Origin: Squalus acanthias
Lineage: Eukaryota
Length of the DNA: 64,000 bases
Assembly: GCA_030390025.1 (NCBI GenBank)
Contig: CM059432.1
Coordinates: 91,700,001 to 91,764,000 of the forward strand
Direction of reading: 5' to 3'
The number at the start of each line of letters is the position of its first letter. Positions within the stretch are counted from its first letter, which is position 1. The position numbers were made by a program, and so were the translations under genes. The notes below the pieces were generated by a model. It saw nothing but the letters and a program-made list of their open reading frames with translations. It made no database searches and was not told where the DNA came from. This document shows positions 12,101 to 62,026 of this stretch, one piece after another.

Positions 12101-15100
12101 TATTCAGTTTCTTATTTTCTAAGGTGTAGGTGATGCTTCTATTTTTCCTACCAAAATGCATCACATCACATTTATCTATGTTAAAATTCATTTGTCACTT
12201 AACTGCCTGTTCTGCAAGTTTTCTAATGTCTTCTTGTATTATGTTACATTCTTCCTCAGTGTTAGCTATACCCTCAGTTTGGTATCATCTGCAAATTTTG
12301 ATATTGAGGTACTTGTTCCCAAGTCCAAACCATTAATGTAAATTATGAATAACAGTGGTCCCAGTACTGATCCTTGTGGAACACCATTTTCTACCTTCAT
12401 CTAATTTGAAGAATTACCCTTTACCCCTACTCTCTGCTTTCTATTTTTTAGCCAATTTGCTGTCCATTGATCTATTTAACCCCTGCGTTCACATGCCCTA
12501 ACATTTGTCATTATCCTACCATGTGGTACCTTATTGAAGGCCTTTTGAAAATCAAGTAAATGACATCTACTGCATTATCCTTGTCTACTCTTTCCGTTAC
12601 CTCTTCCAATAATTCTTAGCCTTTTGGAATCCACGTGGACTATTTATTATATTTCCTGTCTCCAGATGCTCTTCAATCATTTATTTTAGTGTAGATTCCA
12701 GTATCTTTCCTATCACTGACGTTAAACTGACTGATCTATTGTTCCATCTCCTTTTTTGTATATAGGAACATTATTAGCATATATGGGAACAACATTAGTG
12801 AGGGTGTGGTACCCCATATGTCATCTCTCAAGTCCGTGTGGCACAGATGTGAGTGTATTTGGCACACAACTGCTTTAGCCATCCATCACCAGATCTGGCT
12901 GCATTCTCTCTCCTCAACCTTCCCACTGCTTTTCACACAGATAACCACTCCATCATCCTGCAATGTCCTTCCTCCATTGTCCATCTCAGTGGGATTGTTC
13001 TCGCTTTGTTCCACTCTTACCTATCCGATCGTGGACAGAGCATCTCCAGCAATGGTTTCTCTTCCCACCCCCGCACCATTACATCTGGAGTCCTCCAAGG
13101 ATCTATCCTTGGCCACTTTCTCAATGCTGCCCCTTGGTGACACAGGCTCAGCTTCCAATTTTTTTGCTGACAACAGCCAGCTCTATCTCCCCATCATCTC
13201 TCTTCACGTCTTCACTGCCTCTGTGTTGTCAGACAGCTGGTCTGCTATCCAGTTGTGGATGAGTCACAACTTCCTCCAATTAAATACTGGAAAAACTGCC
13301 ACTTTCTCAATGCTGCCCCTTGGTGACACAGGCTCAGCTTCCAATTTTTTTGCTGACAACAGCCAGCTCTATCTCCCCATCATCTCTCTTCACGTCTTCA
13401 CTGCCTCTGTGTTGTCAGACAGCTGGTCTGCTATCCAGTTGTGGATGAGTCACAACTTCCTCCAATTAAATACTGGAAAAACTGAAGCCATCATCTTTGG
13501 CCCCCACCACAAACTCCATATCTTGCCACTTATTTAATCCCCCTTCCTGATCATTGTCTCAGGCTGACCAAGACCATTCACAATCTCAGCATCCTATTCG
13601 ACCCCAAGCTGAGCTTGCTCTGACCACACTGTTCGCATATTTGACCCTGAAATGAGCTACCGACCACATATCCGCAGCATAACAAAGACTGCCTATTTCC
13701 ACCTCCGTAACATCACCCGTCTCCGCCCTTGCCTCAGCTCATCCACTATTGAAACCCTCATCGATGCCTTGGTTATCTCTAGACTTGACTATTCCAACGC
13801 ACTCCTGGCTGGCCTCCCACATTCTACCCTATGTAAACTTGTGATTCAAAACTCGGCTGCCCATGTCCTAACTCGCACCAAGTCCCGTCTGCCCATCACC
13901 CCTGTGCTCTCTGACCTACATTGGCTCCCGGTTAAGCAGCGCCTCGATTTCAAAATTCTCACCCTGGTTTTCAAATCCCTCCATGACCTTTCCCCTCCCT
14001 ATCTCTCTAATCTCCTTCAGTCCCACAATCCCCCACCACCCCCCCACCCCGAGGTATCTGCGCTCCTCTAATTCTGCCCTCTTGAGCATCCCTGATTATA
14101 ATCACTCAACCTTTGGTGGCCGTGCCTTCTATTGCCTCGGCCGTAAGCTCTGGAATTCCCTGCCTAAACCTCTCTGCCTTGCTACTTCTCTTTCCTCCTT
14201 AAAGCCTACCTCTTTGACCAAGCTTTTGGTCACCTACCCTAATTTATCCTTATGTGGATCGGTGTCAAATTTTGTGTCTTAAAATACTCTTGTGCAGCGC
14301 CGTGGGACGTTTCACTACATTAAAGGCGCTATATAAATACAAGTTGTTGCTGCTATACACTCCTTCACAAAAACCACCAACCACCTACTTTGACCTCTGC
14401 CTCCACCCCTGCCTCAGGCAATCTGCTGTTGAAACTATCATTCATGCTTTTGTCATCTCCAGGGACGGGCAAGGCCATGGAGAGATTTGAAAACAAAGAT
14501 GAGAATTTTTAAATCAAGGTGTTGCTGGAGCAAGAGCCAGTGTAGGTTGGTGAGCACAGGGGTGATGGGTGAACGGGACTTAGTGCGAGTTAGGATACGA
14601 GCAGCAGAGCTTTGGATGAGCTCAAGTTTATGGAAGGTGGAAGATGGGAGGCCGGTCAGGAGAGCATTCAAATAGTCAAGTCTGGAGGTAAGAACACAAC
14701 ACAGCGAATGTGAGTTCAAATCCACCATGGTAGTTTCAAAATTGAATTTAGTTTTATAAGATCTAGAAAAAGAAAGCTGGTATCAGTAAAAGTGACCATG
14801 AAGCTGTCGGATTGTTGTAAAAACCCAACTTGTTCACTAATGTTCTTTAGGGAAGGAAACCTGCCGTCCTTACCTGGTCTAGCCTATGTGTGACTCCTGT
14901 CCCACATCCATGTGGTGACTCTTAACTGCCCTCTGAAGTGGCCAAGCAGGCCACTCAATTTACCACCACCTTCGCAGGGCAACTAGAGACAGGCATTGAA
15001 TTCCAGCCTTGCCAGCGACACCTACATTCTGAAATGAATTTTAAAAATACAGAGTTCTGTATATTTATAAAATAGAGCCCTACGCCCCACAATCATTGTT

Positions 15101-18100
15101 ATCGCTCTTTGATGTCTTTCCCTACATGTTGGTGTCATTTAAAGGTAGGATGCCCAAAATTATATAATCTTCTAACTGTGGCCTCACCAACGATATACAC
15201 AAGGTTAGAATAACTTGTTTTCATTCACAATCAAATGTCTTAAGAGGCATCTTAGTATTAGATTAGCCTTGTTAACTGCTTTCCATTGGCTATCAGTGAA
15301 TAATCATACCTATATCGTTTTCCAATGGTTTTATTATACCAGGGGAAAAAGTGTGGAAACATTATACAGTGACGTAATAAAGACTCACTACGCACTTGAA
15401 CATAAAGCAAGGCTTTAATCAACTTGTGAACAAAACATGGAGGTCTAGTTAGCAGTCACTAGCTTCCTGTTTCCAGATTGTCTCTGCCCAAGGTGGGCCC
15501 ATGCCTGAGTATTTATACTCCCTGGACGGCGCCCCAGCTGGCCGCCCAGTAGTACTTCGAGTTGTTACTTGCAATTTATGACATTCTTCCTCCCTAAAAG
15601 GTTTGGAAGTCCAGTCTTCCTTTAACGGACTAGGCGGACCAGAAATAGCCGTAGACGTTTAGCTCTCTGCTTGTGACCGGAAGGCACGTCTCCCCGGACC
15701 GTGTCCTGGTCCCTGGGTCGCTTGGCCCGTACCGGTAAGTCAGTAGAGTCCGTGTCATCTTGATCATCCTGTGGAGGACTGGGAATATCATGACTCCGGG
15801 TGCGGGTCCCCACAGGTGCTGAGCTGGCCTCATCCCGGGTCGTGGCTTGAGATTGTCCGGCGTCCTGGTTTCGGGTGGCCATCCTACGGGGAGCGTCCAG
15901 CTCCCCGAGTTGATCCGGTAGCGTTGCCGGCAGATCCCCCGATGTCCCAAGCGGGGCGTCATTTTCATAGGGGTGCAGTGTTGATATCATTGTCGGGGGA
16001 TCCTTCATCATTCGGGCCCGTGTGACCGGTTGGGCAGGGAGCCAGATCTCGGAGCGAGACGGTGGTCTCCCGGCCATCAGGGTACCGTACGTGCGCATAC
16101 GTGGGGTTTACCTCCGTTAACTCCACCTAGTCAACGAGAGGGTCATTTTTTGCAGACCGGACGAACCTCCGGAGTAGCACCGGGCCTGGAGCCACCAACC
16201 ATGACGGTAGAGACGTCCCATGTGTAGAGCGACGCCGGAATTTGAAGAATCGCTCATGAGGCGTGACATTAGTAGATGTGGAGAGAAAAGACCTGATAGA
16301 GTGTAACACGTCGGGGAGCACCGTTTCCCACTGCTGGTCCGGTAGGTTGCGTGACCTTAGTGCCAGACGGACAGCGTTCCAGATGATGGCATTGTATCGT
16401 TCAACCTGTCCGTTACCGATTGGGTGATATGGTGTCGTCCTACTTGAGGCGATTCCCCGTTGGGAGAGATAACTTTTAAGGTCACTCGACATAAAGGAGG
16501 GACCCCGATCAGTGTGGATAAAATTGGCCGTCCCACAAAGGGAAAAGACCTGATCGAGGCATTTAATTACCATAGAGGTAAGCATATTAGGGCAGGGGAA
16601 GGCAAAGGGAAAGCGTGAATACTCGTCCACCATCGTAAGTAGGTAGGTGTTCCTTGTCGACGAAGGCAATGGCCCTTTAAAGTCTATGCTGAGCCTCTGC
16701 ATAGGCTGCATTGCATGTATGAGTAAGCCATCTGATGGGCGAAAGAATTGTGGTTTCAATTCTGCACAAATCCTACAGGAGGAGCATGTTTTCTTTACGT
16801 CCTCGGTTGAAAATGGTAGATTTTTGGAGCGCACAAAGTGCAACATGCGGGTCACACCAGGATGGCATAAGTCCATATGCAAATCCGCCAGAGTCGACGT
16901 TGACATTGAGGAGCAAAATGCCCGTGTGAAGGTATCTGGGGCCACGTTCTGTTTGCCGGGTCGGTAACAGATAGTATATCCAAAGGCAGCCAGCTCCATC
17001 CTCCAGAGTTGAATTTTATTATTTTTGATTTTCGTGCGCCTCCGGTTATCCAACATGAAGGCCACAGAGCGCTGGTCAGTTATAAGCGTAAAATGACGCC
17101 GAGCAAGAAAATGACCCCATTGGCGTACAGCCTCGATGATGGCCGTAGCCTCCTTCTCGACGGGGGGGTAATGGAGCTCGCTATCCTGCAAGGTTCTGGA
17201 TAGGAATGCCACGGGTCGGCCACCTTGATTCAAGGTAGCGGAGATCGCCACCTCCGATGCATCGCATTCGAACACAAAAGGAAGATTTTCTTCAATGGAG
17301 CGAAGCGTGGCTTTCTCCAGCTGTCGTTTGAGGAGGTTGAAGGCAGAAATAGCCGTAGCTTCCAATGGAAAAGACTTCGCATGGAGCAGGGGCTGTATTT
17401 TATCGGAGAAGTGTGGTATCCATTTTGCGTAATAAGCAAACATGCCAAGTGCCCGACGAAGAGAGCCGAGGTTAGTCGGGGGAGGGAGCTCCTGAAGTGG
17501 ACGAAGTCGCTCTGGGTCCGGTTTAATAACACCGTTGCCCACCCAGTAGCCAAGAATGTTCACCGATGGCACCGACTTCACCGATTTGGATTCGTTTAAC
17601 GTTAAGTGGCGACGGCGGAGTACGTCAAAAAATCTCTGAAGATTGGCGTCATGCTCCTTTTGATCATGGCCGGCAATAGTGATACTGTCTAAATACGGAA
17701 AGGTATCCGTCAAGTTCTCTTGCCGGACTAGGCCATCCATGGCCCGTTGGAAGACGGCCACCCCATTGGTGACCCCGAATGGAAGGCGGCGAAACTGGAA
17801 AAGCCGACCATTGGCCTCAAAGGCCGTATACTTCTTGTCGGAGTCTTGCAGTGGCACCTGATGGTACGCGCTTTTTAAATCGAAGGTCGAGAATACCTTG
17901 TATTTGGCAAGGTTGTTGACCATGTCATCTATGCGTGGCAGCGGGTAGGCATCCAGATCGGTATATAGATTAATAGTCTGCGAATAATCAATACAGACGT
18001 TTATGTTGTTTTAAGGGATTCCTCACGATGACGACCTGAGCCCGCCAGGGAGATGAACATGGCTCGATAATACCGTCGACTAAAAGGCAAGAGATTTCTG

Positions 18101-21100
18101 CCTCAATAAACGCTCGATCATCTTGGCTAAAGCGCCGCGATTTGGTGGCTATGGGTTTACAGCGGGGGGGGGGGAAGATTGGCAAACAGGGAGGGTGCAC
18201 CGAGTAAGGCCGCCGAGAGTGCACAAAACGGCACCTTAGAAATGGTAAGCTCCGGCCTTGACCCTCCAAACTCAAAAGTGATCTTCTTGTGCTGCTTCTG
18301 GAAGTCCTGTCCCAGAAGCACATCGCTGCATAAGTTTGCGAGTACTCCGAGCCGGGTGGAGAGATATGTGCGGCCGTTGAGGGTGAGGTTGACCAGACAG
18401 AAGCCAGAAGAATTGGTGGTCAGAGTCGTCAGAGCCATTGCAATCTCCCTGTCCGAGGGATAAATGTGCAGTTTTAACCTGTTGACAGCCCGCTTACTAA
18501 TGAAGCTGTCAGAGCTGCAGGAGTCGATTAGCGCGCTTAGAGTGTGCCCATTTACTGAAACCTTCGTGGCTGCATGGGACAAACTTTGGGGGAAAACAGC
18601 CGTGATGGGAGGAGGGGCAATTTTCCCTTCGGCAACTGTAGCCTTAACAGTAGTTCTTGGGGGAGGAGCAGCTCCATAGATAGCAGCTGTGAAGCTAACA
18701 GGAGCTCTCGACCGGTATACTTTAGAGGAGCGGCCTTTCTTGTTAGCAAAGGCCTATGACTGGCATACCTTGGAAAAGTGTCCTTTCTTGCTGCAATGAT
18801 TGCAGGTCACATTACGAGCCGGGCAAAATTTTCTGTGATGGCACGCCCCTCCACAAAAGAAACACTTTCTTCCTGATTGCCAGGATGCTGCTAGGGCGGG
18901 GTCGTCATCAGCGAAGGCCTCTAGGGTAGGGTCGTCGTCCATTAGAGTAGAGTCAACATCAGTGGGGGCATCCGCCCGAGACCTACCGAAAGACTCATTA
19001 AAGGAGATAGCCGCCGCCCGTGCACGTGGTGGGAGATAAGTGTCTGCATTTTTCTTGGCCAAGTCCAAGGAACACGCCTGGTCATAAGCAGCCCGTAAAT
19101 TGAGGGTTTTATTTTCCAGCAGGCGCTGACGTATAAAAGGGGACGCGATTCCATTGATAAAGGAATCGCGGATTAGTTCCTCTTGATACTGTTCAGCTGA
19201 AACTGCTTTAAGGTTACAATCCTTGCTGAGCCTGCGAAGTTTCTGGAGAAATTCATCGAGTGATTCCCCAGGCTGCTGCCGAGTTGTGGCCAGTAGGTGT
19301 CGAGCAAAGATTTCATTTGGGGACTTGACATATAGCTGCTGTAAGATTTCGATAGCAGTGTCATAGTCTATACAGTCCTCAATATAATCATACACATGAG
19401 GAGACACGTAGTTGATAAGCATTCGTAACTTATTAGGGACATCCGCCCCACATTCTTCAAGAAAGTTGCTAAAGGTACGAAACCAATGCTTCCATACCTT
19501 TGCTGCCGCAGGTGCATTCGGGTCCAGGTCGAGACGAGCGGGTCTAAGGAGTTTTTCCATGATGGATCAGTTTCTTGCCCAAGTTCCCTTCTGTGGTTCG
19601 AGTTGCAGCTGGTTGTTCCGAATCACCCAAAGCGTGGAGACGATATCAAGTTGATTAAATTGACGTAATAAAGACTCACTACGCACTTGAACATAAAGCA
19701 AGGCTTTAATCAACTTGTAACAAAACATGGAGGTCTAGTTAGCAGTCACTAACTTCCTGTTTCCAGATTGTCTCTGCCCAAGGTGGGCCCATGCCTGAGT
19801 ATTTATACTCCCTGGACGGCGCCCCAGCTGGCCGCCCAGTAGTACTTCCTGAGTTGTTACTTGCGATTTATGACATACAGTATCTAATGGAACAAAAGCA
19901 TTTTATTCCTAATAAAGAAGTTATGGTAACCTATGATTTTAACTGAATCTACTTACTCAGATTGCCCCCATGGAATAGGATGAACATTACAGTTTGCCAG
20001 GTAGTGTGGACTGTACCTAGCTTCCAGGTATATAACTCCTTCATTCGCTTTATCCTCCACAAGTTCATAAGCTATTTGCTCAATAGCTTCTCTGTCACCT
20101 CTGGGGAGTTGGAAAATGAAATGTCATTTACGCAGATTAATATTTTGAACATTTGTGAAGTCTTAAATCGTTATAAAAGTTGCAATTTAGCGGAAGTGGC
20201 ACAATAGCTCCACTAGTACAACACTGAGCTCATTATTATTGTTAAGTTATAAGTAACATTTACATACTAATTTCACTAACTGTTAAAATCTCTGGTTATC
20301 TGAAATAAGAGACTATTTGAAGAGACTACATAAAGCATGGAAGAAATATTTGAACAACAAGCTACCAAGTTTCTATTACAGATGAAAAACAATTAAATTA
20401 CCAAATTTAGTAAGTGTAATTTAGTTATTGGTGAATAATGAATAATGAATAATGAATACAAAAGGAGTTCTAATTTTACAAATAAAATAGATATTGTCAT
20501 TCACTTTTTAAACTTGTTGTTTCTGTGATCAGTATTAAATATTGTAAAAAGATGTTAAGACAACAGCTCTTAACATCCGTGTCAGCAGTGAATGACAGAC
20601 CACACCTTCAGGATTTCCACGTTTAGATGCGCATGCGCTAAATCCTGAAGTTGCAGTCAGTTACAAAGGGGTAATAATGGCGAACGCCGTTAGTTCATTA
20701 TTAACAACGCAAATTCCGATCCAATATTTCAGGTCTATGACCTTTCATTAGAACCTGCAACGTTAACTGTTTTTCTCTCCACAGATGCTGCCTGAACTGC
20801 TGAGTAGTTCCAGCATTTTCTGTTTTTATTGCAAATTTCCAGCATCCATAGTATTTTGCTTTTGCTATATTAATATCTACCTTGCAACTGTTACACATTT
20901 TGTAGCATGCATCATTCACAATAATCCCTTAATTTGCAAATGCTAATAATGATGCTCAGTATATGTGCTTAGGGTGTTTGTGTACACAAACTACTGTGGT
21001 TACACAAGTATTGAATGAGTTTATTCAAACTAAACATTACAGGGATGAATTTCCTCAGCGATTTTCCCGCTTGGCCACTGTAACTTCGGCGGAAGTACCG

Positions 21101-36100: not shown

Positions 36101-39100
36101 CCAACCTTCCTTTTTTTTTTATTGATGTGCCTATAAAATATTTTACTATTTTGTTTTATGTTCCTTGATAATTTAATTTCATAGTTCCTCTTTGCCTCCC
36201 TAATTGTGTTTTTTGACTTCTCTCCTAATCTTTTCATGCACTTCATAGAGTCATAGGGGCGATTTTGCCAGCCCTGGGGAGGTGGTAAGGAGGCGGTACC
36301 CATCCCGCCCTCTGTGCCACCTTCCCAGGAGGCGGGTACCCGACCCGCGTCGGGTCCCCGTCTCCTCGAGGCGGGAAGGGGATTAGTGCCCCAGGTAGTT
36401 AACAGGCAGCTTTGTGGAGAATCCCTGTTTTCGTCCCTGACGGCTCTGAACCATGTCAGGGTCAGCGAGGCAGGCCGTCGGTCTGCAGGGGTCGAGATGT
36501 CCGGTGTGCAGGTGAGTGATGAGTGCAAGTGTGGAGAGGTAAGTAAGTGTGTGAGGTGAGTGTAAAGTGTTTTAATAAGTTTTACTTACCTTTACTTCTT
36601 CCTGCAGGCTTCCTCCCTTCAGGTCTCGGGAGTCCCTCAGCTCAGCGGCACAGAAAGCAGAATGGCCGCTGAACTGTCAAAAGCTGCAGCCTTCTGCTTT
36701 CTGCCCAGGAACGCTCTCTAACTGAGCCTGAGTGGAAGGACTCAACTTAGAGGACAGATCGTCATTGTTTGACAGCTTCACAGAGCCGTCAAACACTGAC
36801 ATTTCATCTGTCAAAGGCTCTTGACAGATGAAGCGTCACTCGCTGAGGTCACCTGTAACCGGCTTTCCCTTAATTGGCCTGCTAAACCCACTGGGTGGGC
36901 TTAACAAGGTCAAGCAAGGGAAAATAGTGTGGGTTGGCCACATGTCGATGGAGGCGGGACTAAAACCCGACAAATGGGGGTCCCACCTCCAAATGCTCCC
37001 CATTGAGAAAAATCCAGCCCAGAGTGTCATAATGGCACAGAAGGAGGCCATTCGGCCCATCGAGTCTGTGCCGGCTCTCTGTAGAGCAATCCAGTCAGTC
37101 CCATTCCCCCGCTCTGTCCCTGTAGCCCTGCAAGTTTATTTCCCTCAAGTGTCTATCCAGTCTCCCCTTGAAAACATTGAGTGTCTCTGCCTCCACCACT
37201 TCCATCGGCAGCGAGTTCCAGGTCATCACCACTCGCTGCGTAAAAAAGTTCTCTCACATCCCCCTTGTATCTCTTGCCCAAAACCTTAAATCTGTGTCCC
37301 CTATTCCTTGTACCATCAACTAGTGGGAACAGCCTTTCCCCATCTAGCCTATCCAAACCCGTCATAATCTTGTACACCTCTATCAAATCACTCCACAACC
37401 TCCTTTGCTCTAATGAAAACAAATCCAGCTTCTCCAACCTGTCCTTGTAGCTAAGATCCCCCATCCCTGGAACCATTCTGGTAAATCTCCTCTGCACCCT
37501 CAAGTGCCTTCACATCCTTCCTAAAGTGTGGTGACCAGAACTGGATGCAATACTCCAGTTGTGGCCTAACCAGCGCTTTATAAAGGTTCAGCAGAACTTC
37601 TCTACTTTTGTACTCAGAGGGTTGTGAATCTTTGGAATTCTCTGTCCCTGAGGGCTGTGGAATGTGAGTGATTGAGTATATTCAAGGCTGAGATCGCTGG
37701 ATTTTTGGACTCATGGGGAATCAAGGGATATGGAGATCGGGCGGGAAAGTGGAGCTGAGGTCGAAGATCAGCCATGATCTTATTGAATGGTGGAGCAGGC
37801 TCGAGGGGCCGAATGGCCAACTCCTGCTCCTAATTCTTGTGTTTTGTAATTGGCTCCTAGGCATGTATCTCCCTCTCCTTCTGTCTGTTTGTCTTCCCCA
37901 ATAAGAAAATGTAAACAGTCATTTCTAACTATCAACAGAACACGGGTGGTAATTAGATTTTCAAAATTCAACTTCATTCATTTTTTTAATTTGGGAAAAA
38001 AAAAAATTAACTGAGGAAAGACACGAGGGCAATTTTCAACTTTATCACCTGGGCGGTAATCAAGCCGAGCGGATTGCCACCCCCTACTGTGTTGTTGAAC
38101 CCACAAATCAGGTGGGTACTGTGGCAGTACCATGGGAAGAAATACTGTTGATATTACAGTTTGACATTGACACATACCCAATATTAAAAGAGATGAAATG
38201 TGAATGGCTGCTATTAGGAAAGTAGGAGAGGGAAATGGCTGCAGGTCCCTCCCTAACAGCACTGTGGATTACCTTCAACACGTGGACTGTAGCAGTTCAG
38301 AAGGCGGCTCACCACCACCTTCTCAAGGGCAATTAGGGAGTGACAATAAATGCTGGGCTTGCCACCACCTTCTCAAGGGCAATTAGGGAGTGACAATAAA
38401 TGCTGGGCTTGCCAGCGACATCCACATCCCAGGAATTAATTTTAAAAAGAAGTAGCTTCACAAAGAGGGGACCAGCGTGGGAGAAAGCAGGACAGCCCAC
38501 TTCATCCTGCTGATTTCTCCCCCCCCCCCCCAGTATAAAAACCTGTAAGCAACAGATTTAAACATTCAGCAATTAAGTTAGAGTAGAAAAGCTTTTGTTA
38601 AAAGTTAGGTAATTTCATACTTTAATACTAAATGGTTTTATATTTAGCTTGTTGAAACTTTGTTAAAAAGTAAAAAGTGAGAAGTCGCACAACACCAGGT
38701 TATAGTCCAACAGGTTTATTTGAAATCACAAGCTTTCGGAGCGCTGCTCCTTCGTCAGGTGAAGTCTGACGAAGGAGCAGCGCTCCGAAAGCTTGTGATT
38801 TCAAATAAAGCTGTTGGACTATAACCTGGTGTTGTGTGACTTCTCACTTTTTTCCACCCCAGTCCAACACCGGCATCTCCGCATCATGGCCTCTATTTAT
38901 AAAGCCCAAGATCCCGTATGCTTTATTAACTGCTTTGTTAACCAGTCCTGCCACCTTCAAAGGTTTGTGAACAAACACCCCAAGGTCTCTCTGTTCTTGC
39001 ACCCCCTTTAAAATTGTACCATTTAGTATGTATGTTCTCTCCAAATTCTTCCTAACAAAATGTATCCTCTCACACTTCTCTGCATTGAATTTCATCTGCC

Positions 39101-42100
39101 ATGTATCCACCCATTCCACCAGCCTACCTATGTCTTCTTGAGGTCTATTACTATCTTCCTCACTGTTAACTACCTCACTGTTAACTACACTTTGGATCAT
39201 CTGCAAATTTTGAAATTGTGCCCTGTACCCCCAAGTCCAATTCATTAATGTATATCGAAAACAGCAGTGGTCCTAGTACTGAACCCTGGGGAACACCACT
39301 GTATACCTCCCTCCAATCTGAAAAATAGCCATTCACCACAACTCTCTCTTTTCTAGCCCTTACACAGTTTTGTATCCATGCTGCTACTGCCCCTTTTATC
39401 CCATGGGCTTCAATTTTGCTAACATACCTAATATATGGTACTTTACCTTTTGAAAGTCCATATACACAACATCAACTGTACTGCCCTCTCTGTTAACTCA
39501 TCAAAAACCTCAAATCAAGTTAGTCAAATATGATTTGCCCTAAACAAATCCATGCTGGCTCTCCTTCGTTAGTCCATGTTTGTCCAAGTGGCTGTTAATT
39601 TTCTCCCAGATGATTGTTTCTAAAAGCTTCCCTACCACCGACATTAAACTGACTGCCCTGTAATTGGCAGGTTTATCCTTCTCCCCTTTTTTGAACAAGG
39701 GTAACATTTGCAATCCTCCAGTCCTTTGGCACCACCCATGTATCTAAGGAGGATTGGAAGATTGTGGCCGGCACCGCCGCAATTTCTACCCTTACTTCAG
39801 CAACCTTGGATTCATCCCATCTGGACCGGATGACATATCAGGGGCGATTTTCCCAGCCTCGAGGAGGCGGGACAGTTTGGAAAAAAATCACAAAAAGTGA
39901 AGGCGGGTTTGGATCCGCAATGTGGACCTGCCTAAGCCGAAGAGATGCCATCACGCCAACAGTTTGCCATCACCTAATTTTAATTCACACAGGGATGGCA
40001 TTTCATCAATAAACAGAAACAATCACCCAATCTGCACACAGATCTGGAGGTTATATCCCTTGCCAGCTGGACCCACACAGCCTTGGTTTCGTTGGGAGGT
40101 CTCTAGCTCTCGTCCGCTCAACCAGGATACCCAGCGCCTCATCAGAGAACCTTGGGGAGGCCCTTGCCTCGGAGCTGGCCATTCTTCAATGAGATAAAAG
40201 TTTGGAGGTGGTGCAGCATTGACCAAAAACCAGTGGAATGAGCCAAGGCAGCAAGCAGCCCTTAAATGAAGCTGGATAAGTGACGTCAGCAGAGGCGAGT
40301 TTCAGTCCCAAAAGACTAATTGGCCCAGGGAACCCACACCTCTGAAATTAACTGGCTAATTAGGGGAAAATCGCAAATTTTTCCCACCCGACAGTGGAGG
40401 CGGGTTTGGAACCCACCCTAAACCGAAACCCGCCTCCAATGGGAAAATCACCCCCACACACTTTAATTACTGCCAGCCTGTTTAGTACATCCTCTTTATT
40501 TTTATCTCATCCAGTATCCCAGCAACCTCCTCATTTACCATAGCTTTGGCAAAGTCCTCTTCCTTGGTAAAAACTGATGCAAAGTGCTCATTTAGTACAA
40601 TAGCAAAATACTGCAGATGCTGGAAATCCAAAACAACAACAGAAAACGCTGGAAAAACTCAGCAGGCGAGGCAGCATCCGTGGAGAGAGAAACAGAGTTA
40701 ACGTTTCAGGTCGAGACCTTTCTGATGAAAGGTCTCGACCTGAAACGTTAACTCTGTTTCTCTCTCCACGGATGCTGCCTCGCCTGCTGAGTTTTTCCAG
40801 CGTTTTCTGTTGTTACTCATTTAGTACCTCAGCTATGCCTTCTGCCTTCACCAATAGTTTTCCATTTTGATCCCTAATTGGCCCCACCGCTGCTCTGGCA
40901 ACCCTTTTACTGTTAACATGCCTATAGAAGACCTTTGGATTCCCTGTTATGTTAGCCCCTTTTATGTTATTTTACACCACCTGATTTTTGGTGTTGCTGA
41001 GAATCATAAAAAATTTGTATCACTGTCTTAGTCTTGCACCTCTGTCTTAAGCCTTCTCTCGCTCTCTGCTTTTCTATTTGTGGTGTCTGCATCACTCTTG
41101 CTAATGATGTTATATTGTCTCACTCTTTTTGCAAGTCTCCCTTTTCTCATTGTTTGCAGCCCCTCTAGTCTCCTCTCTCTTTCATACGTCTCCAATGTTT
41201 CTGTGTGGCTCTAAACATGTTCCTTTACTGATATGCGCAATAGCTACTTTTTTTTTTTTTAAAGGCCTACGCTACTTGGGTAAACGGCAGGGTTGGGTGG
41301 GCGGGGGGGGGGGGGCGGAGGTGGGCAACACATACTGGTTTAGAGGTAGTAGCAAGGAGAGGCTGTCAGAGACGAGCTATAAAATGGGCGATTCAGAGAA
41401 AACTTTGTGCTGATGGCCTGGCAAGGGGAGATTATGTGGAGGGATGGGGAGGTTGTAGCCAGGCAAAGCACTGGGTTTGAGTAGTACAGTGGAAAGGGGC
41501 AGTGGAAGGTGCAAACTGGGAGGAAATCTGGAACGGGCATGACCTGGGGGGAACTGTGGGAGTGCCAGTGTCTGGAATCACAGGATGGAATTGTGATCTG
41601 GGACCTGGAGAACTTTAGGATGACTGTGCTCAACCAGCACTCATAGGAAGTCTGGAGTGCAGGACAATTCACAAGTTGGGGTGTGGAGCACTCAAGGGGG
41701 GATTCCCAATACTGGGAAAACTCAGAAGGTTGGAGATCTGAGCATGCCAAGGGAGACAGGTGCTGGAATGTATGTGGGCAGTTGGGCAGAGCTGGAAGCA
41801 CAGATCATTGGTATGGGAGGAGTGGGGGGTGCTAGGCTGGGCTGTCAAAGTAATTGGAAGGATAAGACACTGGAAGACAGTTGTAGAATCACAGGGTGGG
41901 CAAGGATAGCAAGAATCACTGAAGAGGGAGATGGGAAACTGGAAGAAATAATCTTGCTGATACTCTTTCCATACCTAAGAGTGATAATGAAGTGTTTACT
42001 TATTTATTTTGCACATACAGAAACATAAATGGGAAAATTGCACATTAAATCACATACTTGGCAAAGTGCAAAATAGTTTTAAGTCTTATGGCTCCATCCA

Positions 42101-54583: not shown

Positions 54584-56329
54584 TGTAGAATTCGCAATAT
54601 ATCGCGATTTGATTAATAAGGAGAAAAACACAAAGTTTCGTTCAAACAGCTTTTATTTCAGCAGAATGCTGACAGGTTTAAATTGGACACAAGCAGCCTG
54701 TAAAATGGCCGCCGCACCTCGTGACAGAACATTCTAGACTTTTCAACAGGCAGACAAGATGGCGTTCCATTAAACGTTTTTTCAAGATCGATAACGATTC
54801 AGCACAGTGAAGATAATACACGAGACATTATGGGTTTACAGTATAAACATAGATACTGAAATCGGTCTCCCAGGTACAAAGGAAAGCCATTGTACCGAGT
54901 AATCAAGGGCCCATCCAAAGGACATTAATATGTAAACTCCCAACGACTCTACGATGAGAGAGCCGTTAGCAGGTAGTTATACAGGACACTTGGAAGCCCC
55001 AAACCCCTCCAGGGAGAACACCGACCGATTTAACAATGGGAGAAGTATTAACAGGTACTCAAACATTCATGAGTAGCCCCGAAACCCATTAAGGACGGAG
55101 ATCACCCATACAAGACATTTGGGCGCCAAACCCTAAACAAAAGAATGGACATTATAGTTGGGCGGGAAACGGAAGATTTTTGCACTATAATTGCAGGCCC
55201 CAAACCGTCCACTCGCTCTCTTGCCTCTTGCCTCGTGCTCTTGCTCTTGCTCCTGCATTCGCTCGCTTGCTCCTGTGCTTTTATCCGGTCGATTCGTAAC
55301 CTCGTGGCTGCTCCTGTGTACTCGTAGTTGGGCTTCTGCGTGCCTGTTGCCTCTTCTGAAAAGACTGTTGCACTTTCTGATCCGTTCGGATCTACCTCGT
55401 GTCGCGTAACGAAGACCTATGTTGGTAACTGGCAGCGGAACCAAAGGCCCGAGATGAGATGAGATGAGATGAGAGGAGAAGAGAAGAAGACCATATCCAT
55501 CGCCACGGTCAGTAAATCCCGACCGCGCCTGTAGGTCGATTAGCCAAGTTTTCCTCGCCAGGAAGATTTCTCTTTCGAACTTATAACGAAACATATTGCA
55601 TCAATGATAACTGGACTGTGCCCAAAGCAACTGGAACGTGCAAACATATCGTATCAATGATATTGACAACGGTGCTCCAAGATTAAACTGTGAAGCCCAC
55701 CAACAGAGGTCTTCACCACAGCGGACGGTCCAGCCTACTAGCCGGAGCAGCAGAAGCAAGTAAACAAGTGGGACCAGGAGATCTCCTGACCGACACGTGG
55801 GTGCTGCGGTGAAAAACATCCGATCAGCTATTCGGAATTTCTCCGAGTTGTCACGAGTGGTGAGCATGAGTCTCGAGATCCTACGAAGCTAGTTTAGGAT
55901 AGATATTGATAGGGGAGGGTTTAAAGATTAAGGATATTTGTAATGTGTGCCCCTATTTACGTTGTGCCGTTCGTTCCTCGTTTCCCTAAGATCGACTATA
56001 TAACCGTTTGTAAGATTGTACTGTCATTAATCTGTGCTTATGACATGTATTTCATAATTTTAAGTATCATGCAATAAAGATTTTCCATTTCGTACCATTC
56101 AAACCAAGTCTACATGAGTTTTATCTCCATTACTGCTCTCGCATCTAAGTCCAGTGTCTAGAACCGTAAGGGAGAGTGATTCGAACCACTCACAGGTGTG
56201 TCTAGTGTTCCCAGACTGGCTGGAGACCAGAACAGGCAACCAGGCCTAGACCCGCACTGACATACAGGCTGCACAGAGCCGCGTGAATCTCACAGGCTAC
56301 GAGACACGCAGGGTCAGGAATCCCTTACA
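54584..56329 (+). repeat. 5' LTR (1746 bp)
   Basis: TGTA...TACA termini. GC box near 55160, TATAA at 55186, AATAAA at 56073. The end is inferred from the PBS position. Confidence 0.88.
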
Positions 56330-56333
56330 GAAA

Positions 56334-58145
56334 ATGGCGACCGCGGCAGGACACTGGCAGCGAGAGGGTAGTGTGTTAGATTTTGGAATGACTGTACGAA
56401 ATGTTATGCAGGAAAAGATAGCGGATTATGTGTTTGGAAAGGTTAATCTAACTAAAAAGTGGATAAGTGAGTTGTTAGCGGATAAGAGCCCACTAGAGGC
56501 AGCTGAAAGGTGGACTGATAGTAAGGAACATAAAAAGACAGTTGAGAAAGCAGTCTGGCTTATGTGCTACAAAAGGCAGGTTCAGATTTCAAACCAGACC
56601 ATTACAGCGCTAACAGCTCGTATCAGCCATTTAGAGGGAGAAATGGAGGAGAAGGTTTCTGGAGGGGAGGTGCTCATTAAGAATTTAAATGAGTTACACC
56701 AGGAAAGCCAGGAAGTCTCCAGTTACCTTAAAACAAGGATAGAGTATCTCGAGTGCCAGGTCACTGAAGCAAAATTGAACGAGAGTAGGTTAAAGGAAAG
56801 ATGTAACCGCCAAGCTGCCCAGATAAGAACTCAAGAAGAGAGCTTAATGGGGGTTAGGTCGGCGTATAAGTTGGCCCTTGAGGATAAGTTTCAGGGAGCC
56901 GACCATAGCGCCTGCCAAAGGGAGATAGAGAGCCTCAAAAAGGCCGTGAATAATGCGAACGGCATGGTGTGCCTTATCAATCCGTCGGCGCACCAGCCGC
57001 TAGTAAATGAGAGATTTAGAAATTCCCCACCAAGTAAAGCAGAAGAAGTAGTAGCCACTGCGCCCTCCGCGCCACCCAGCTATTCAGAAACCTGGGTTAG
57101 GGAGGAAGCAACGGAAGAAACAAAAGAGCCCATTGAAAAGGAAGTAGAAAAGGGATCGTTGTATCCAGTAACGGGGATTAAAAGGGGCCCAAGCAGAAAC
57201 GGTGGGGAAGAACCGGGGGATCTCCTCGGACAGCTGGTGTTGCCTCACAGTTCACATCAGCTGAGAGCTATGATAAATCACGTACGGAAGCTGACCGAGA
57301 TAGACGACCCTTCCGTACATTTCAGGGAAGTTGAGCAAGCCGCAGCCATTAACGGCTGCGATGATGGGGAGACAGCAAAAATGCTGCTGTTCTCATTAGA
57401 CAGCTCGGTCCTTCAGTGTCTCTCAGGCGAGAGCAAGAGGGGAAACAAAAGTTATGAGGAATTGAAAAATGAGGTCCTAGAAGTAGTGGGGGCGAACGAC
57501 GGAGGTCCGTTTGCTAGAGTGGGACAGACAGTGCAGATGGAGGGAGAACCCCCGAAGGTTTTTGCCGACAGGCTGTGGCCAGTATATGAGCGCAGCTGTC
57601 TAGGTGCGCCCGAGCGCGAAGATGTGGAAGGCGCCGCTCTAATTCATTGGCTTAGGTGCATAATAGCCAACAGTTTACCAGCTGTTAGAGAGCAGGCAAA
57701 AGCCTGGTTCGATCCCAATGACCTCAACCTTACGGAAGAGTCGGTCTTGAATCGACTCACGTTAGGTTATCGTAACATAAGGGGTATGACGACACGTCCC
57801 TTTAAGGGAAGAGTACATGAGGTACGACCCGCAGCCCCGGCTCAAAGAGAGTGGCATCAGGAGGGTAATCGCGCCCCACAGGCAAGTAATGCCTGTTACG
57901 GGTGTGGGAAGACAGGGCACTGGCGCAAGCACTGCAGGAACCCTTGGAAGGATTCCAAGGATAAAAATCCCGCGGTCCGAGCCCAGGCGCCTGTCCCGCC
58001 TAAGGAAGCAAAGGCACCCACCCCTCCCGACGACCTCGAAGCAGTGTTAGGAGCCATGCGCAAGATGGTTTTGAATGCGCGTGGACAGGTGGCGGTCGCA
58101 ACCGGCCCCGTAGGTGCCGCAGGACCGTCTAATAGTACCCAATGA
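56334..58145 (+). CDS. gag: Gag (603 aa from the first ATG): coiled coil, PSAP/PPSY late motifs, capsid-like region, one CCHC knuckle
   Basis: Uninterrupted ORF; APSAPPSY; CYGCGKTGHWRKHC. Confidence 0.88.
   Translation: MATAAGHWQREGSVLDFGMTVRNVMQEKIADYVFGKVNLTKKWISELLADKSPLEAAERWTDSKEHKKTVEKAVWLMCYKRQVQISNQTITALTARISHLEGEMEEKVSGGEVLIKNLNELHQESQEVSSYLKTRIEYLECQVTEAKLNESRLKERCNRQAAQIRTQEESLMGVRSAYKLALEDKFQGADHSACQREIESLKKAVNNANGMVCLINPSAHQPLVNERFRNSPPSKAEEVVATAPSAPPSYSETWVREEATEETKEPIEKEVEKGSLYPVTGIKRGPSRNGGEEPGDLLGQLVLPHSSHQLRAMINHVRKLTEIDDPSVHFREVEQAAAINGCDDGETAKMLLFSLDSSVLQCLSGESKRGNKSYEELKNEVLEVVGANDGGPFARVGQTVQMEGEPPKVFADRLWPVYERSCLGAPEREDVEGAALIHWLRCIIANSLPAVREQAKAWFDPNDLNLTEESVLNRLTLGYRNIRGMTTRPFKGRVHEVRPAAPAQREWHQEGNRAPQASNACYGCGKTGHWRKHCRNPWKDSKDKNPAVRAQAPVPPKEAKAPTPPDDLEAVLGAMRKMVLNARGQVAVATGPVGAAGPSNSTQ
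56335..56352 (+). promoter_or_regulatory. Primer-binding site, tRNA-Arg(TCG)
   Basis: TGGCGACCGCGGCAGGAC is complementary to GTCCTGCCGCGGTCG-CCA, the vertebrate tRNA-Arg-TCG 3' end as recalled. Confidence 0.85.
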
Positions 58146-59378
58146 CTAGAGCCCACGCAGCCTGCCTACCTGTGTCCTTTTAAAGGACACGCACAGGAGG
58201 GGGTCTGCGGTGAGGAGGCCAGGTTAAAAGAGCAGGCCTTGCGGGAGGAGAACGCCCGCTTAATAGGGAAAATAGATGGGCTGGAAGGGCAGCTTAGAGA
58301 GCAGGCCCTGCGGGAGGAGAACGCCCGATCAATGGGAAAGTTAGACGTGCTCAGGCTAGAAGCGCAGCTTAGAGAGATAAAAGCAGCCTACAGGGTAGCC
58401 AAGAGCAGGGAGTATGAGGATTTAAAACAGGATAGAAATCTGCAGCCTCCAGCAGGTGAGATTTCACAGAAACAAGCAGGGGCGGTGGCCTGTCTTAAGG
58501 GAGGGGCCAGACCTGCGAGTGGGAAAGCACAGCCCCAGGTAGGACCACAAGGCACACAGGCAGGCATAGCAGCTTGCATCAGGGGAAGGGACATCCCGGA
58601 CGATCATGCAGCGTTTTTCTGGAGTTGGGGGTTAGATGAGGAAGAACCCAGGGTACCCTGGTCAGATGAGGATAGTGCAGATGAGCATAGTGATGACGAC
58701 GGGTGGTTTCGGAGGAACGGTCCCTTTTACGATATGGAGGGGACGGGGGCTGCAGGTAGAGATCCACACAGGGTGGACACACGAGCTGCAGGTCCCGAAG
58801 ACAGGAGGGAGGAGCTAGAGGAGGCAGGGCCAGCCGCTATGGGAGCACAGAGAGTACCGGTGTGGCTCCCAGAGATGTGGCCGCCCGCTTTGAACGTCCA
58901 GTCCTCAGGGGAGGCAGAGATCACGAGTGAAGGGCCGCCTGCTGGGCCGAGCAGGGCGGAGCCACGAACTGCCAGCCCCGAGGTTAGGGAGGCGGAGTCA
59001 GCGGAGGCGGAGCCGGCGACTGTGATGGAACCCCAGGTCATCCCGTTGGAGGTCTCGGAACCCGGTCCGTCCGTCACGGAACCCCCGCCCATAGCAACTC
59101 CCCGTAGGTCAAGTAGAGAACCCCAGCCCAGGAGGATGTGGTCATGTCCCCAGACTGCCCCAAGGCGTAAAATTCAGGTTAAGATAACCCGGGTAGAGAC
59201 AGGCCACATCGCAGCAGTAACAGGCTGCGGCAGATCAGAGGAAAGGGTCAGCGCAGTAACAGGCTGCGGCAGATCAGAGGAAAGGGTCAGCGCAGCAACA
59301 GGCTGCGGCAGATCAGAGGGAAGGGTCAGTGCCCTCCCACCGTCGGGAAGAGCTCGCAGCAGCCTTCTCAGAATTTAA
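58146..59378 (+). CDS. ORF2 (410 codons), in frame after the gag stop, non-enzymatic
   Basis: No stop from 58146 to 59375. No DTG/DSG, YxDD or integrase motifs. Confidence 0.6.
   Translation, partial: LEPTQPAYLCPFKGHAQEGVCGEEARLKEQALREENARLIGKIDGLEGQLREQALREENARSMGKLDVLRLEAQLREIKAAYRVAKSREYEDLKQDRNLQPPAGEISQKQAGAVACLKGGARPASGKAQPQVGPQGTQAGIAACIRGRDIPDDHAAFFWSWGLDEEEPRVPWSDEDSADEHSDDDGWFRRNGPFYDMEGTGAAGRDPHRVDTRAAGPEDRREELEEAGPAAMGAQRVPVWLPEMWPPALNVQSSGEAEITSEGPPAGPSRAEPRTASPEVREAESAEAEPATVMEPQVIPLEVSEPGPSVTEPPPIATPRRSSREPQPRRMWSCPQTAPRRKIQVKITRVETGHIAAVTGCGRSEERVSAVTGCGRSEERVSAATGCGRSEGRVSALPPSGRARSSLLRI
59214..59330 (+). repeat. 3 x 39-bp in-frame tandem repeat (AVTGCGRSEERVS)
   Basis: Units start at 59214, 59253 and 59292. 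Confidence 0.92.
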
Positions 59379-59673
59379 AGGGGCCGCCCTGAGAACGGGC
59401 GGCACTGTAAAGTTATTAGTTTTAAGTTTTAAGTTTATAGTTCAAGGTTAAGTTTTAAGTTTGTAGTTTTAATAAGGCTAAGTTTGTAGTGTTTTTAACA
59501 AAAAACGATAAAATGATGGGAGTTTTAAGGCTAGGTTTAGAGGAAGTCTATTCAGCAAACGTTGAAGTTTACGTGAGGCGAGGTCAGGGGACCCGCTCAC
59601 CCTTCACAACAGCCAGAGACCTTTTTGCGAGGCCGGCTACCTCATTCTATCTGATCACAGGAACCAAGGAAGG

Positions 59674-62026
59674 ATGGAACGAATTCTAGTATTGCTCGTG
59701 GCAATCGGATGTGGATTGGCCTATCGAGGCCACACCAAGGATGTCGTGGTGTTTGGATGTTCCGGGGACACGGCCCCCATCGCGGTGGATGGGACCGGAA
59801 GACGGAAGGCAGAAGGGACCAGCACCTATTTCCACAAGGGAAGGTGGCCAGGATGGCTGGGAACGAACTCAACGGAGTATTCCAGCACATCGGGGTTCGC
59901 CTACAAAGAGACTTCTTTAATGTGCCCCAAAGTAAGGATCATCGCACCCAGGATCAGCGTCACCGTCGGCAAACGGATTTGTTTGACCTGTAGTGGGGAT
60001 GTCCCATTGAGCCGATGGTGGTGGCTGCGAAAGCTGAGCAAAACTATGAGAAACTCCTCGGTCGAGTGGGAACGACTGGGTAATAATACCCATCGGACAA
60101 TTACGGGGACAGACGGACAAGTGAAAGTCTGTTGGGACAAATGGTGGGAACCGGATGAGGGGATTTATGTATGTATGTGGGGGTCAAAGTACGTTTGCCC
60201 CAAAGGCATCTCCATATTTTTTATTAATCAGTGGCAGGATAACGGACAGGGGATGAGGTGGGATGCGAGCACCAGGGGGTGCGGAGCCCCATTCTCCCCG
60301 ATCCCAGTAAATGCCACTGAACTCATTACGCGCCCACGCAAAGCCCCGCCCACGATTCCGGTGGTTCTAGCTGAGGAAGAAGGGTGCCCTAAAGCTAGTA
60401 AGGGACCCGGGAACGGTTTGGTACTGGTCCCCACAGACCAGATACTATTTCAGGGGGTACATTACGCGGTGGCCTCGGTGATTTTAAATCTCACTGAGCT
60501 ACGGTTGCCAGAGTGGTGCCCCAAAAAGACGGAACAGTTGTATCAGGTCCTGTTGACCAAGATGTTCAGACAATTTTACGAGTTTGATTTTGCAGAAATT
60601 GATAAGACAAGTTTGTACACCGCACCGCAGGAAGTTTTGGATCAAGTAGGGAGGCAAAGAAGGGGTTTGGTGAACGATGCGTTCACTGCTTTTAACACAG
60701 GGACATCTGTGGTCAACGCTCTAGACAGTGTGGAGCTGCAGACCCAGATTAATGGTTTAAAAACACAGTTAAAAGACATTCTAACAGATGAGAATAAAGT
60801 GGTAGGGTCAGGTCTACACGAGGACCAAGCCATGACTCTCCATTTAAAGGAAATTATAGCAGAGCTGGAGAAACATGCGCGTACGGTAAATGCCCTGATC
60901 AGGGAAGATCGGAATGCATCCGATCAAGCTGCGCAGAACGAGGTGTGCGTGCTTTACGGGGCGTGGTTACTGGGCGAGGGCTGCAGTAATTTGGAGGATT
61001 TAAAACAAGGTTTGGTTCCGTCCTGGATAAGTAACAAACACCTGCGGGCGCTCCACCCTTTTCAGAACGCATTAAGCCCGTGCCAGCTCAGGCTAGCTTC
61101 AGAAGCTTACCCAGTCCCCGTGGACTGCGGACGTTCAAACCATACTATTATGGGAATAGTATTACGCATGCCGGTTTTGGGCAACACAGCAAAGCCCGCC
61201 CCGGTGTATCGGGTAGAGAACATTGGTGTCATTCAGGGGGGAGCCCACATTCGTTATGCAGCGGTTCCACCTTACGTCATCCGCTGGGAGCAAACGATGA
61301 CAGGTACAGATCTCTCTGGTTGTCGTGGCAGGGGAGCACACATAATACTGTGCCCCCAGCACTTGAATGCCTTTTTAACACCACAGTGCGGGTTCAGAAC
61401 GGCTGGCGCCAAGTCCATGAATTGCACCATGGAGGCAATGGCACAAGATCATGTGCCTCCGCAGGTAGCATACATCGGGGGTGGAACATATTGTGTTACC
61501 ACTGCAGCGCAACACTACCAGCATGGAAACCGTAGCCGGTGTCCGGTGAGTGACAGCAGTTTCTGTTTTTAAACCCAGGGCTGAAGTTCAAGTAGCACAA
61601 CAGCGAATTATCCCAATCCCTGAACCATCCACTGTTCATCTCACAGTAAAAGAGAATTTCACCGACTTGCAGCGATTTGTCGCGCATTTTGGATACCTCA
61701 TTCCCCCTCTCCCTGAGCATTTAACCAAACTTCTGAAAGCCGTCGCGGTATCACAGAAGCATTTTTATACGTTAGAGCAGAAAACTGTCGAAATAGGAAC
61801 AGACATTTTGGACATAGTGGTTCCACCGTGGTGGAATCTGTTCACCAATATTGAAGTGCCTTCATGGATCAGAATAGCCTCCCACATTTTAGTCGTCTGT
61901 CAAGTGTTTAATGTAGTGTACCTATTGTTCATACATTGTAAAAGAGACAAGCGCCTCACCAAGCATGAAAACACGGGAGAGTGGCGAGAACGTTACGTGC
62001 GCGTGCACGATGAGAGCACCGTGTAA
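59674..62026 (+). CDS. env: Env / class I fusion glycoprotein with an Ig-like N-terminal domain; 783 aa if one extra T at 61566-61570 is removed
   Basis: Signal peptide, DEGIYVC, furin RQRR (60652-60663), fusion peptide and heptad repeat, Cys-rich region. The TM (about 61864-61938) is in the +1 frame. Acceptor TCACAG at 59660. Confidence 0.85.

What the first reader, a model, noticed from the sequence alone, without database searches (positions are those of the whole stretch)
19640..19720. Gypsy element with no tRNA PBS: the PBS position pairs with its own LTR polyA signal
Seen: on the element strand the 5' LTR is followed by A-TTTAATCAACTTG (19659-19647), not TGG. This is the perfect 13-nt complement of CAAGTTGATTAAA in the LTR (19717-19705), which contains the ATTAAA signal; the loop is 45 nt. 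Established: Tf1/sushi elements self-prime using the transcript 5' end. Inference: here the partner is internal to R/U5, so the hairpin may both self-prime and hide the 5' LTR polyA signal. It cannot form at the 3' LTR.
Basis: partly seen in the sequence, partly recalled or inferred. Interest (0 to 1): 0.7.

Follow-up and report, generated by a model that had tools for sequence, protein, structure and literature searches.

The report
Self-priming hairpin in animal Gypsy retrotransposons
This broken jumping gene and most relatives we could examine carry, where a host tRNA normally docks to start DNA copying, 12-19 bases that pair with the element's own end-repeat and change in step with it, so the lineage likely primes copying with its own RNA; masking of the polyA signal is at most a likely side effect.

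Summary
Confirmed. The 4.5-kb Ty3/gypsy element (19875-15370, minus strand) has no TGG after its 5' LTR. Bases 19659-19647 perfectly complement LTR bases 19717-19705; 0 of 20,000 shuffles reach 13. The pairing is lineage-wide: 27 of 34 relative regions with a gag start show at least 12/13 Watson-Crick pairs starting one base after the LTR's CA, against a shuffle maximum of 11. There are 55 two-sided changes over 13 pairs. One copy only 1% from its siblings has a matched change in both LTRs and the primer site, as expected if the primer is recopied into that site. No chromodomain was found and no Tf1-type 'pretzel' signal, so it works like Tf1 but is not a Tf1/sushi member on the features tested. 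The polyA-masking idea is only partly supported: a canonical hexamer lies in the arm in 13 of 23 elements. Whether the arm is internal or at the RNA 5' end is unresolved, because no RNA reads mapped. This scan reported the same clade-level feature before on other DNA.

The parts
19661..19875 (-). 5' LTR, 215 nt, TG...CA
   Evidence: 97.7% identical to the 3' LTR
19705..19717 (-). LTR arm CAAGTTGATTAAA, the predicted self-primer; ends in the ATTAAA hexamer (19710-19705); predicted cut between 19705 and 19704
   Evidence: conserved and covarying in relatives; the cut site is inferred
19647..19659 (-). primer-binding-site position, perfect complement of the LTR arm, no TGG
19660..19660 (-). one-base spacer between the LTR-terminal CA and the duplex
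   Evidence: A in 20, T in 2, G in 1 of 23 elements; the one-base offset was imposed by the scan but was seen unprompted
19663..19702 (-). two predicted hairpins inside the 45-nt loop (19702-19686 and 19684-19663)
   Evidence: predicted fold only; the U5-end hairpin is not significantly enriched across relatives
19800..19807 (-). TATAAATA box in the 5' LTR, 90 nt upstream of the arm
   Evidence: segment 19779-19810 is shared with more abundant repeats in two runs; promoter function untested
15622..19560 (-). single gag-PR-RT-RNase H-IN reading frame, broken in this copy (stop at 18756-18754, frame change between 18157 and 18010, stop at 16129-16127); two Cys-His knuckles in gag; no chromodomain hit
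15584..15595 (-). polypurine tract ending GAA, directly before the 3' LTR
15370..15583 (-). 3' LTR, 214 nt; holds a second copy of the arm (15426-15414) without a partner downstream
19876..19880 (-). target-site duplication CTGTA (second copy 15369-15365)
19957..20100 (-). host adenosine deaminase exon; the element sits in the following intron, in the same orientation, about 80 nt past the donor
   Evidence: PF00962 E=3.6e-8; splice sites read from the sequence

Best explanation
The element's primer site is the exact complement of a 13-base stretch of its own LTR, and this duplex likely serves as a self-primer: the RNA is predicted to fold back and be cut just after the arm's terminal AAA, and the freed 3' end would start minus-strand DNA one base from the LTR end. 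Shown: the complementarity, its fixed register, the absence of TGG, and lineage-wide two-sided covariation. Inferred from Tf1: the cut is made by the element's own RNase H; the arm fragment stays paired and primes; plus-strand synthesis copies the primer back into the primer site, which would explain why the two arms track each other almost only by Watson-Crick pairs. Not determined: whether the arm is the capped 5' end of the RNA (Tf1 geometry) or lies about 55-60 nt inside it, as this LTR's TATA box would imply (about 50:50). Where the arm holds the polyA hexamer, the same duplex would also cover the 5' polyA signal, as a secondary benefit.
For: Register and polarity are those of a primer: the arm's 3' end pairs with the base one nt after the LTR's CA. 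27 of 34 relative regions (from 33 of 93 fetched loci, those with a gag start) reach at least 12/13 Watson-Crick pairs; the best of 760 shuffles is 11, and 3 of 3 distant TGG-PBS controls score 9. On 21 aligned duplex-positive sequences 272 of 273 cells pair, 10 of 13 pairs change on both sides (55 cells), 0/500 shuffles reach this, and sliding by 1-3 columns drops pairing to 20-50%. There are 19 different primer-site 13-mers in 23 elements; each matches its own arm at 12.8/13 on average and other arms at 8.6/13. None of the 23 has TGG after the LTR. Among 28 duplex loci there are only 6 defective pairs, 1 of them G-U. L018, 1.1% from three sibling copies, has G>T in the arm of both LTRs plus the compensating C>A in the primer site. 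About 50% of Tf1 cDNA keeps a DNA copy of the PBS at its 3' end (PMC11042837, passages). A stem of at least 4 bp starts at the first base after the arm in 19 of 23 elements, against 7.9 expected.
Against: No biochemical or RNA-end evidence; the one raw RNA run laid 0 reads. 7 of 34 regions miss the threshold (L030, L047b, L050, L069, L074, L076, L077). Some look decayed: L074's 3' LTR keeps the matching arm and L077 has a 10/11 variant, and L050 has 10 bp in the same register. L030, L047b, L069 and L076 are not explained. The covariation alignment was chosen for having the duplex, and its rows are related. The L018 case is one observation noticed after the fact; L023 shows the opposite state (arm changed in both LTRs, primer site not). 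The flanking stem is weak evidence: stems starting 2-12 nt further on are nearly as long, and this copy has only 2 bp at +1. The Tf1 pretzel side-duplexes are not enriched.
Confidence: 0.8

Rival explanations
1. The duplex is a regulatory hairpin that masks the 5' polyA signal (as recalled for the HIV-1 polyA hairpin) or serves packaging, and priming happens by some other route.
For: A canonical hexamer is inside the arm in 13 of 23 elements; the duplex can form only at the 5' LTR; the arm is 24-68 nt from the primer site, a plausible place for the polyA signal.
Against: 10 of 23 arms lack a canonical hexamer, and in 3 of these it lies in the loop instead. The duplex starts exactly one base after CA, almost never uses G-U (1 of 6 defects in 28 loci), and leaves no alternative primer site (no TGG in 23 of 23).
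Confidence: 0.08
2. The primer is element RNA but comes from the 3' copy of the arm (the RNA's 3' R region, or a second RNA in the dimer or a solo-LTR transcript), not from fold-back of the 5' end.
For: The same arm and its GCC flank are present in the 3' LTR; solo or 3' LTR sequence is 3-5 times deeper than internal sequence in two runs. Sequence covariation cannot tell which copy donates.
Against: The 5' copy is tethered 24-68 nt from the site and folds with it in every prediction made; the proven case, Tf1, uses the 5' copy (PMC7175516, passages).
Confidence: 0.08
3. A host tRNA, tRNA half or other small RNA primes here, and the LTR match is secondary.
For: The core is partly conserved across distant families (commonest pair kept in 13-21 of 21 sequences at the ten inner positions); no host tRNA set could be searched.
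Against: 19 different 13-mers in 23 elements, each tracking its own LTR, including a change inside one 1%-divergent family; no TGG; no tRNA or other Rfam family over the element.
Confidence: 0.03

Closest known systems
Tf1/Tf2 (S. pombe), Tj1 (S. japonicus) and the Tf1/sushi group of chromoviruses
   Same: Ty3/gypsy domain order; no tRNA site; the primer site pairs with LTR sequence upstream, with primer polarity. In Tf1 the first 11 bases pair with the PBS and RNase H cuts between bases 11 and 12 (PMC7175516, passages).
   Different: No chromodomain hit in 6 of 6 long relatives or in this copy. The duplex is 12-19 bp with a 24-68-nt loop and often overlaps the polyA hexamer. No enrichment of the two extra 'pretzel' duplexes described in PMC10085805 (passages; test). 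Position of the arm relative to the cap is unknown.
Plant Tcn1 (gypsy) and TAR (copia) lineages, predicted self-primers
   Same: Predicted on the same criterion: at least 10 nt complementary to the LTR, starting 0-5 nt after it (PMC6317226, passages). This element meets that criterion.
   Different: Those are plant chromoviruses and copia elements; this is an animal, chromodomain-less gypsy lineage.
Metazoan non-chromovirus gypsy clades (Mag A/B/C, Cigr-1, Saci-2, MolGy)
   Same: Short LTRs; the LTR ends resemble the 'Mag C' motif TGTNATRT...AYANAACA (PMC3601003, passages); two Cys-His knuckles; single ORF of about 1,200 aa in 4.0-4.5 kb, which I recall also fits Cigr-1 (recalled, from no call).
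   Different: I could not place the lineage in any named clade because no named reference sequences were available. The passages seen say nothing about self-priming in these clades.

Membership tests
Ty3/gypsy LTR retrotransposon | LTRs TG...CA, TSD, PPT, order PR-RT-RH-IN | tested here: met
   best solved match of a full-length relative is Ty3 Gag-Pol
Tf1/sushi group | Primer site complementary to own LTR, no tRNA site | tested here: met
Tf1/sushi group | Chromodomain at the integrase C-terminus (usual for chromoviruses) | tested here: not met
   No chromo family in Pfam scans of 6 of 6 long relatives (1024-1227 aa, E<=0.01) or of this copy's C-terminal frame; degenerate chromodomains could be missed
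Tf1/sushi group | Three-duplex 'pretzel' with PBS-adjacent sequence pairing to LTR sequence downstream of the primer | tested here: not met
   Summed post-PBS/loop helix length 122 vs shuffled 122.5 (278/500 as high); U5-end hairpin 111 vs 103 (61/500) in 23 elements. A simple test of ungapped helices only.
Tf1/sushi group | Primer is the 5' end of the transcript | tested here: inconclusive
   0 RNA reads laid; no TATA at -25 to -35 from the arm in 19 of 19
Tf1/sushi group | RNase H cleavage releases the primer | not testable with these tools
   needs biochemistry
Tf1/sushi group | RT phylogeny inside chromoviruses | not tested
   The tree held no named chromovirus; it only separates 21 duplex rows from 3 TGG-PBS rows (SH-aLRT 99, long branches meet)
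tRNA-primed gypsy elements | TGG-initiated PBS within a few nt of the 5' LTR | tested here: not met
   0 of 23; present in 3 of 3 distant controls L009, L011, L013
Mag lineage / Cigr-1 / Saci-2 clades | RT-RNase H phylogeny with the named reference elements | not testable with these tools
   No named references among hits; the readable supplements of PMC6238403 were listed but not opened; the Saci-2 paper is not held

The most novel reading that the evidence does not exclude
A widespread animal gypsy lineage without a chromodomain evolved self-priming independently of Tf1/sushi and does it differently: the primer is cut from inside the transcript at a conserved AAA/GCC helix junction, the same short duplex covers the 5' polyA signal in over half the families, and the primer site is rewritten from the LTR arm at every replication cycle.
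Probability: 0.25. Interest if true: 0.72.

Novelty: new variant of a known kind. Interest (0 to 1): 0.55.

Why it matters
Self-priming has been shown experimentally only for fission-yeast Tf1 and predicted for its chromovirus kin and some plant lineages. Here the signature marks a chromodomain-less gypsy lineage whose proteins occur in cnidarians, molluscs, a crustacean, a flatworm, an insect and cartilaginous fishes (the LTRs of those named hosts were not examined). If real, tRNA-free priming is common in animal genomes, such elements would be outside the reach of silencing by 3' tRNA fragments that target the PBS (inference), and annotation tools that require a tRNA PBS would miss or under-score them. 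The leader is under 100 nt with a sharply predicted cut site, so it is a simple substrate for testing how an RT makes its own primer.

Tried and rejected
Own genome: none held, so host tRNAs and sibling copies could not be searched directly. Viral contigs: two scans, no relatives. RNA evidence: no RNA holder listed; the one raw RNA run laid 0 reads, which is no test; contig runs showed one minor LTR variant at 19712 without a visible partner change, uninformative because contigs drop rare variants. Whole-region folding stability: not above shuffles. Splice-acceptor-like motifs upstream of the arm (seen by eye; a splice-built primer is the lead in notes e1-7811049 and e1-7882409): 8 of 23 vs 5.3 expected, 78/500 shuffles as high, rejected; the duplexes are contiguous in the unspliced LTR. 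Pretzel duplexes: not enriched. Fixed TATA-to-arm spacing: not found. Rfam over the element: two chance-level hits, no tRNA; ARAGORN found no tRNA in the window. Naming the clade: failed. The first tree run did not finish; the quick tree is reported (L006 left out for low coverage). Literature: 10 searches found no description of self-priming in a non-chromovirus animal gypsy clade. The library lacks most subscription papers, Repbase Reports and GyDB pages; I recall, without being able to check, that some Repbase gypsy entries mention self-priming, so prior notice is quite possible.

Full report
The element. The finding lies at the 5' LTR/internal boundary of a 4.5-kb LTR retrotransposon on the minus strand: 5' LTR 19875-19661, 3' LTR 15583-15370, 97.7% identical, flanked by the 5-bp duplication CTGTA, with a polypurine tract ending GAA before the 3' LTR. 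It encodes gag with two Cys-His knuckles, protease, RT, RNase H and integrase in one frame that is broken in this copy. It sits in an intron of an adenosine deaminase gene. The whole genome is not held.

The observation. After the LTR-terminal CA comes one A, then TTTAATCAACTTG (19659-19647), the exact complement of CAAGTTGATTAAA (19717-19705), with a 45-nt loop. None of 20,000 dinucleotide shuffles of the LTR gave a 13-nt complement (best 12, once); the 3' LTR with its host flank gives 4. The surrounding 221 nt are not unusually stable as a whole (z = 0.27), so the signal is this one helix and its position.

Relatives. The pol protein has at least 1,438 relatives at E<=1e-50 among 8,000 scored candidates. 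Among the best 120 are proteins named from Nematostella, Xenia, Hydra, Mytilus, Biomphalaria, Palaemon, Trichobilharzia, Cyamophila, Scyliorhinus and Hypanus. Of these 93 loci, 33 had a recognisable gag start with upstream DNA (L047 gave two regions, one of them placed by its LTR pair rather than by a gag hit), making 34 regions. The other 60 loci were not scored for the lineage; three of them, distant elements with two LTRs, served as controls.

Conservation. A scan for the best 13-nt pairing that starts one base after any CA near the gag start found at least 12 Watson-Crick pairs in 27 of 34 regions. The best of 760 shuffled regions reached 11, and the three controls reached 9. The controls have a classical TGG site instead (I recall it as tRNA-Leu type, not tested). 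In the relatives with two LTRs that I inspected, the LTR pair fixes the CA end independently, and the duplex again starts one base after it. The seven misses are L030, L047b, L050, L069, L074, L076 and L077. L050 has 10 bp in the same register. L074's 3' LTR retains the matching arm, and L077 has a 10-of-11 variant ending AGA instead of AAA with no polyA hexamer. The other four remain unexplained or decayed; none of the seven was seen to have TGG, though only the 23 duplex-positive elements were scored for it (0 of 23).

Covariation. On an alignment of 21 duplex-positive segments, 272 of 273 cells in the 13 inner pairs form a standard pair, 10 pairs vary on both sides (55 cells), 0 of 500 shuffles reach these values, and sliding the register by 1-3 columns lowers pairing to 20-50%. 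Beyond pair 13 pairing decays towards background. This set was chosen for having the duplex and its rows are related, so one search is the unbiased figure. After dropping five near-identical copies, 23 elements carry 19 different primer-site 13-mers, matching their own arm at 12.8 of 13 and other arms at 8.6. This rules out a single host RNA as the partner.

Evidence on mechanism. (i) Polarity and register are those of a primer whose 3' end would be the arm's last base. (ii) Across 28 duplex loci there are 6 defective pairs and only one is G-U; the threshold biases against G-U, but most regions pass it. (iii) Four copies from one assembly differ by 0.9-1.15%; one, L018, has G>T in the arm of both LTRs and the compensating C>A in the primer site. 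A specific compensating base at about 0.5% divergence per lineage is expected roughly 2 times in 1,000 by independent mutation (my estimate, made after seeing the case). It is the expected result if plus-strand synthesis copies the primer back into the site; about half of Tf1 cDNA keeps such a DNA copy of the PBS (PMC11042837, passages). L023 shows an arm change in both LTRs without compensation, which fits a first-generation state but is not support. (iv) The arm ends in AAA in 20 of 23 elements and is followed by GCC or ACC in 17. A stem of at least 4 bp begins at that next base in 19 of 23 against 7.9 expected, which suggests a helix junction at the predicted cut. This is weak, because the loops are structured throughout and this copy has only 2 bp there.

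The polyA idea. The arm contains AATAAA or ATTAAA in 13 of 23 elements. Ten lack it; in three of those the canonical hexamer is in the loop, and two elements have a second one in the loop. The duplex is thus kept where it hides no canonical signal, so masking is not what maintains it, though it may be a real side effect in this family.

Internal or 5'-terminal primer. Unresolved. This LTR has TATAAATA 90 nt upstream of the arm, in a 32-nt segment shared with more abundant repeats whose sequence differs downstream; if it is the promoter, the arm lies about 55-60 nt inside the RNA. Against this, the sharp 12-19-bp limit of complementarity is what copying a short primer to its end would leave (inference), and no TATA spacing is conserved: none of 19 elements has one 25-35 nt upstream of the arm. 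The only raw RNA run laid no reads.

Comparison with known systems. Tf1 uses its first 11 bases, cut by RNase H (PMC7175516, passages). Tf1/sushi elements are chromoviruses with a three-duplex pretzel (PMC10085805, passages; PMC4600332, passages). Plant Tcn1 and TAR lineages are predicted self-primers (PMC6317226, passages). The present lineage shows no chromodomain hit in 6 of 6 long proteins and no pretzel enrichment. A quick RT/RNase H tree of 47 rows puts all 21 duplex rows and the ten named animal proteins on one side of a 99-support branch, opposite the 3 TGG elements and one long-branch row, but it holds no named reference, so neither the clade name nor an independent origin is shown. 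Passages seen from PMC3601003, PMC6238403, PMC8556966, PMC3670739, PMC2582038, PMC554778, PMC12440569, PMC6934838 and PMC5006619 do not describe self-priming in a non-chromovirus animal gypsy clade. Ten searches found no such paper. Repbase, GyDB and most subscription papers, including the Saci-2 paper, could not be seen, and the supplements of PMC6238403 were listed but not opened; these may bear on novelty and on the clade name.

Earlier notes of this scan describe the same clade-level signature at eight other places in this genome (of 22 notes that fit the look-up, 8 were shown) and in another genome. They are unchecked AI notes, seen after my analysis, and are not counted as support.

Verdict. 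The feature is real and lineage-wide. It most likely marks Tf1-like self-priming (0.8) in an animal gypsy lineage that fails the Tf1/sushi membership features tested. New variant of a known kind; interest 0.55.

Noticed in passing
window 54584 to beyond 62990, + strand: A second, very young LTR element (repeats identical over at least 300 nt, continuing past 55115/62980). It has a gag-like ORF with a CCHC knuckle (56250-58145), an unknown ORF (58146-59378) and an env-like ORF (59566-61572) with a signal-peptide-like stretch, an RQRR site and a fusion-peptide-like stretch; no pol seen. No Pfam or PDB hit. It recalls a non-autonomous lokiretrovirus-like element (recalled label, untested).
   Followed up: partly
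window 40635-40814 and 38672-38852: Near-perfect long palindromes (88-nt arms, 100%, 4-nt spacer; 87-nt arms, 98%, 7-nt spacer) inside dispersed repeats.
   Followed up: no
window 19779-19810: The 32-nt LTR segment around the TATA box is several times deeper than the neighbouring LTR in two runs (844 and 2092 vs about 110-250) and differs downstream in those contigs, so it is shared with a more abundant repeat family.
   Followed up: partly
L077:1414-1467: Relative whose duplex ends AGA:TCT rather than AAA:TTT, begins right after a TTTAC, and contains no polyA hexamer; one mismatch in 11.
   Followed up: partly
L001-L009, L011, L013 (bacterial genome bins): Animal-type gypsy retrotransposons, some complete with both LTRs and target duplications, lie in contigs of bacterial metagenome-assembled genomes, probably host contamination.
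   Followed up: no
L018, L021, L022, L023, L024, L041, L061, L085 gag start: The leader is extremely short: the gag ATG lies within about 10 nt of the duplex end or overlaps it, so the duplex might also affect translation initiation.
   Followed up: no
window 13112-13483: Exact tandem duplication of 186 nt.
   Followed up: no
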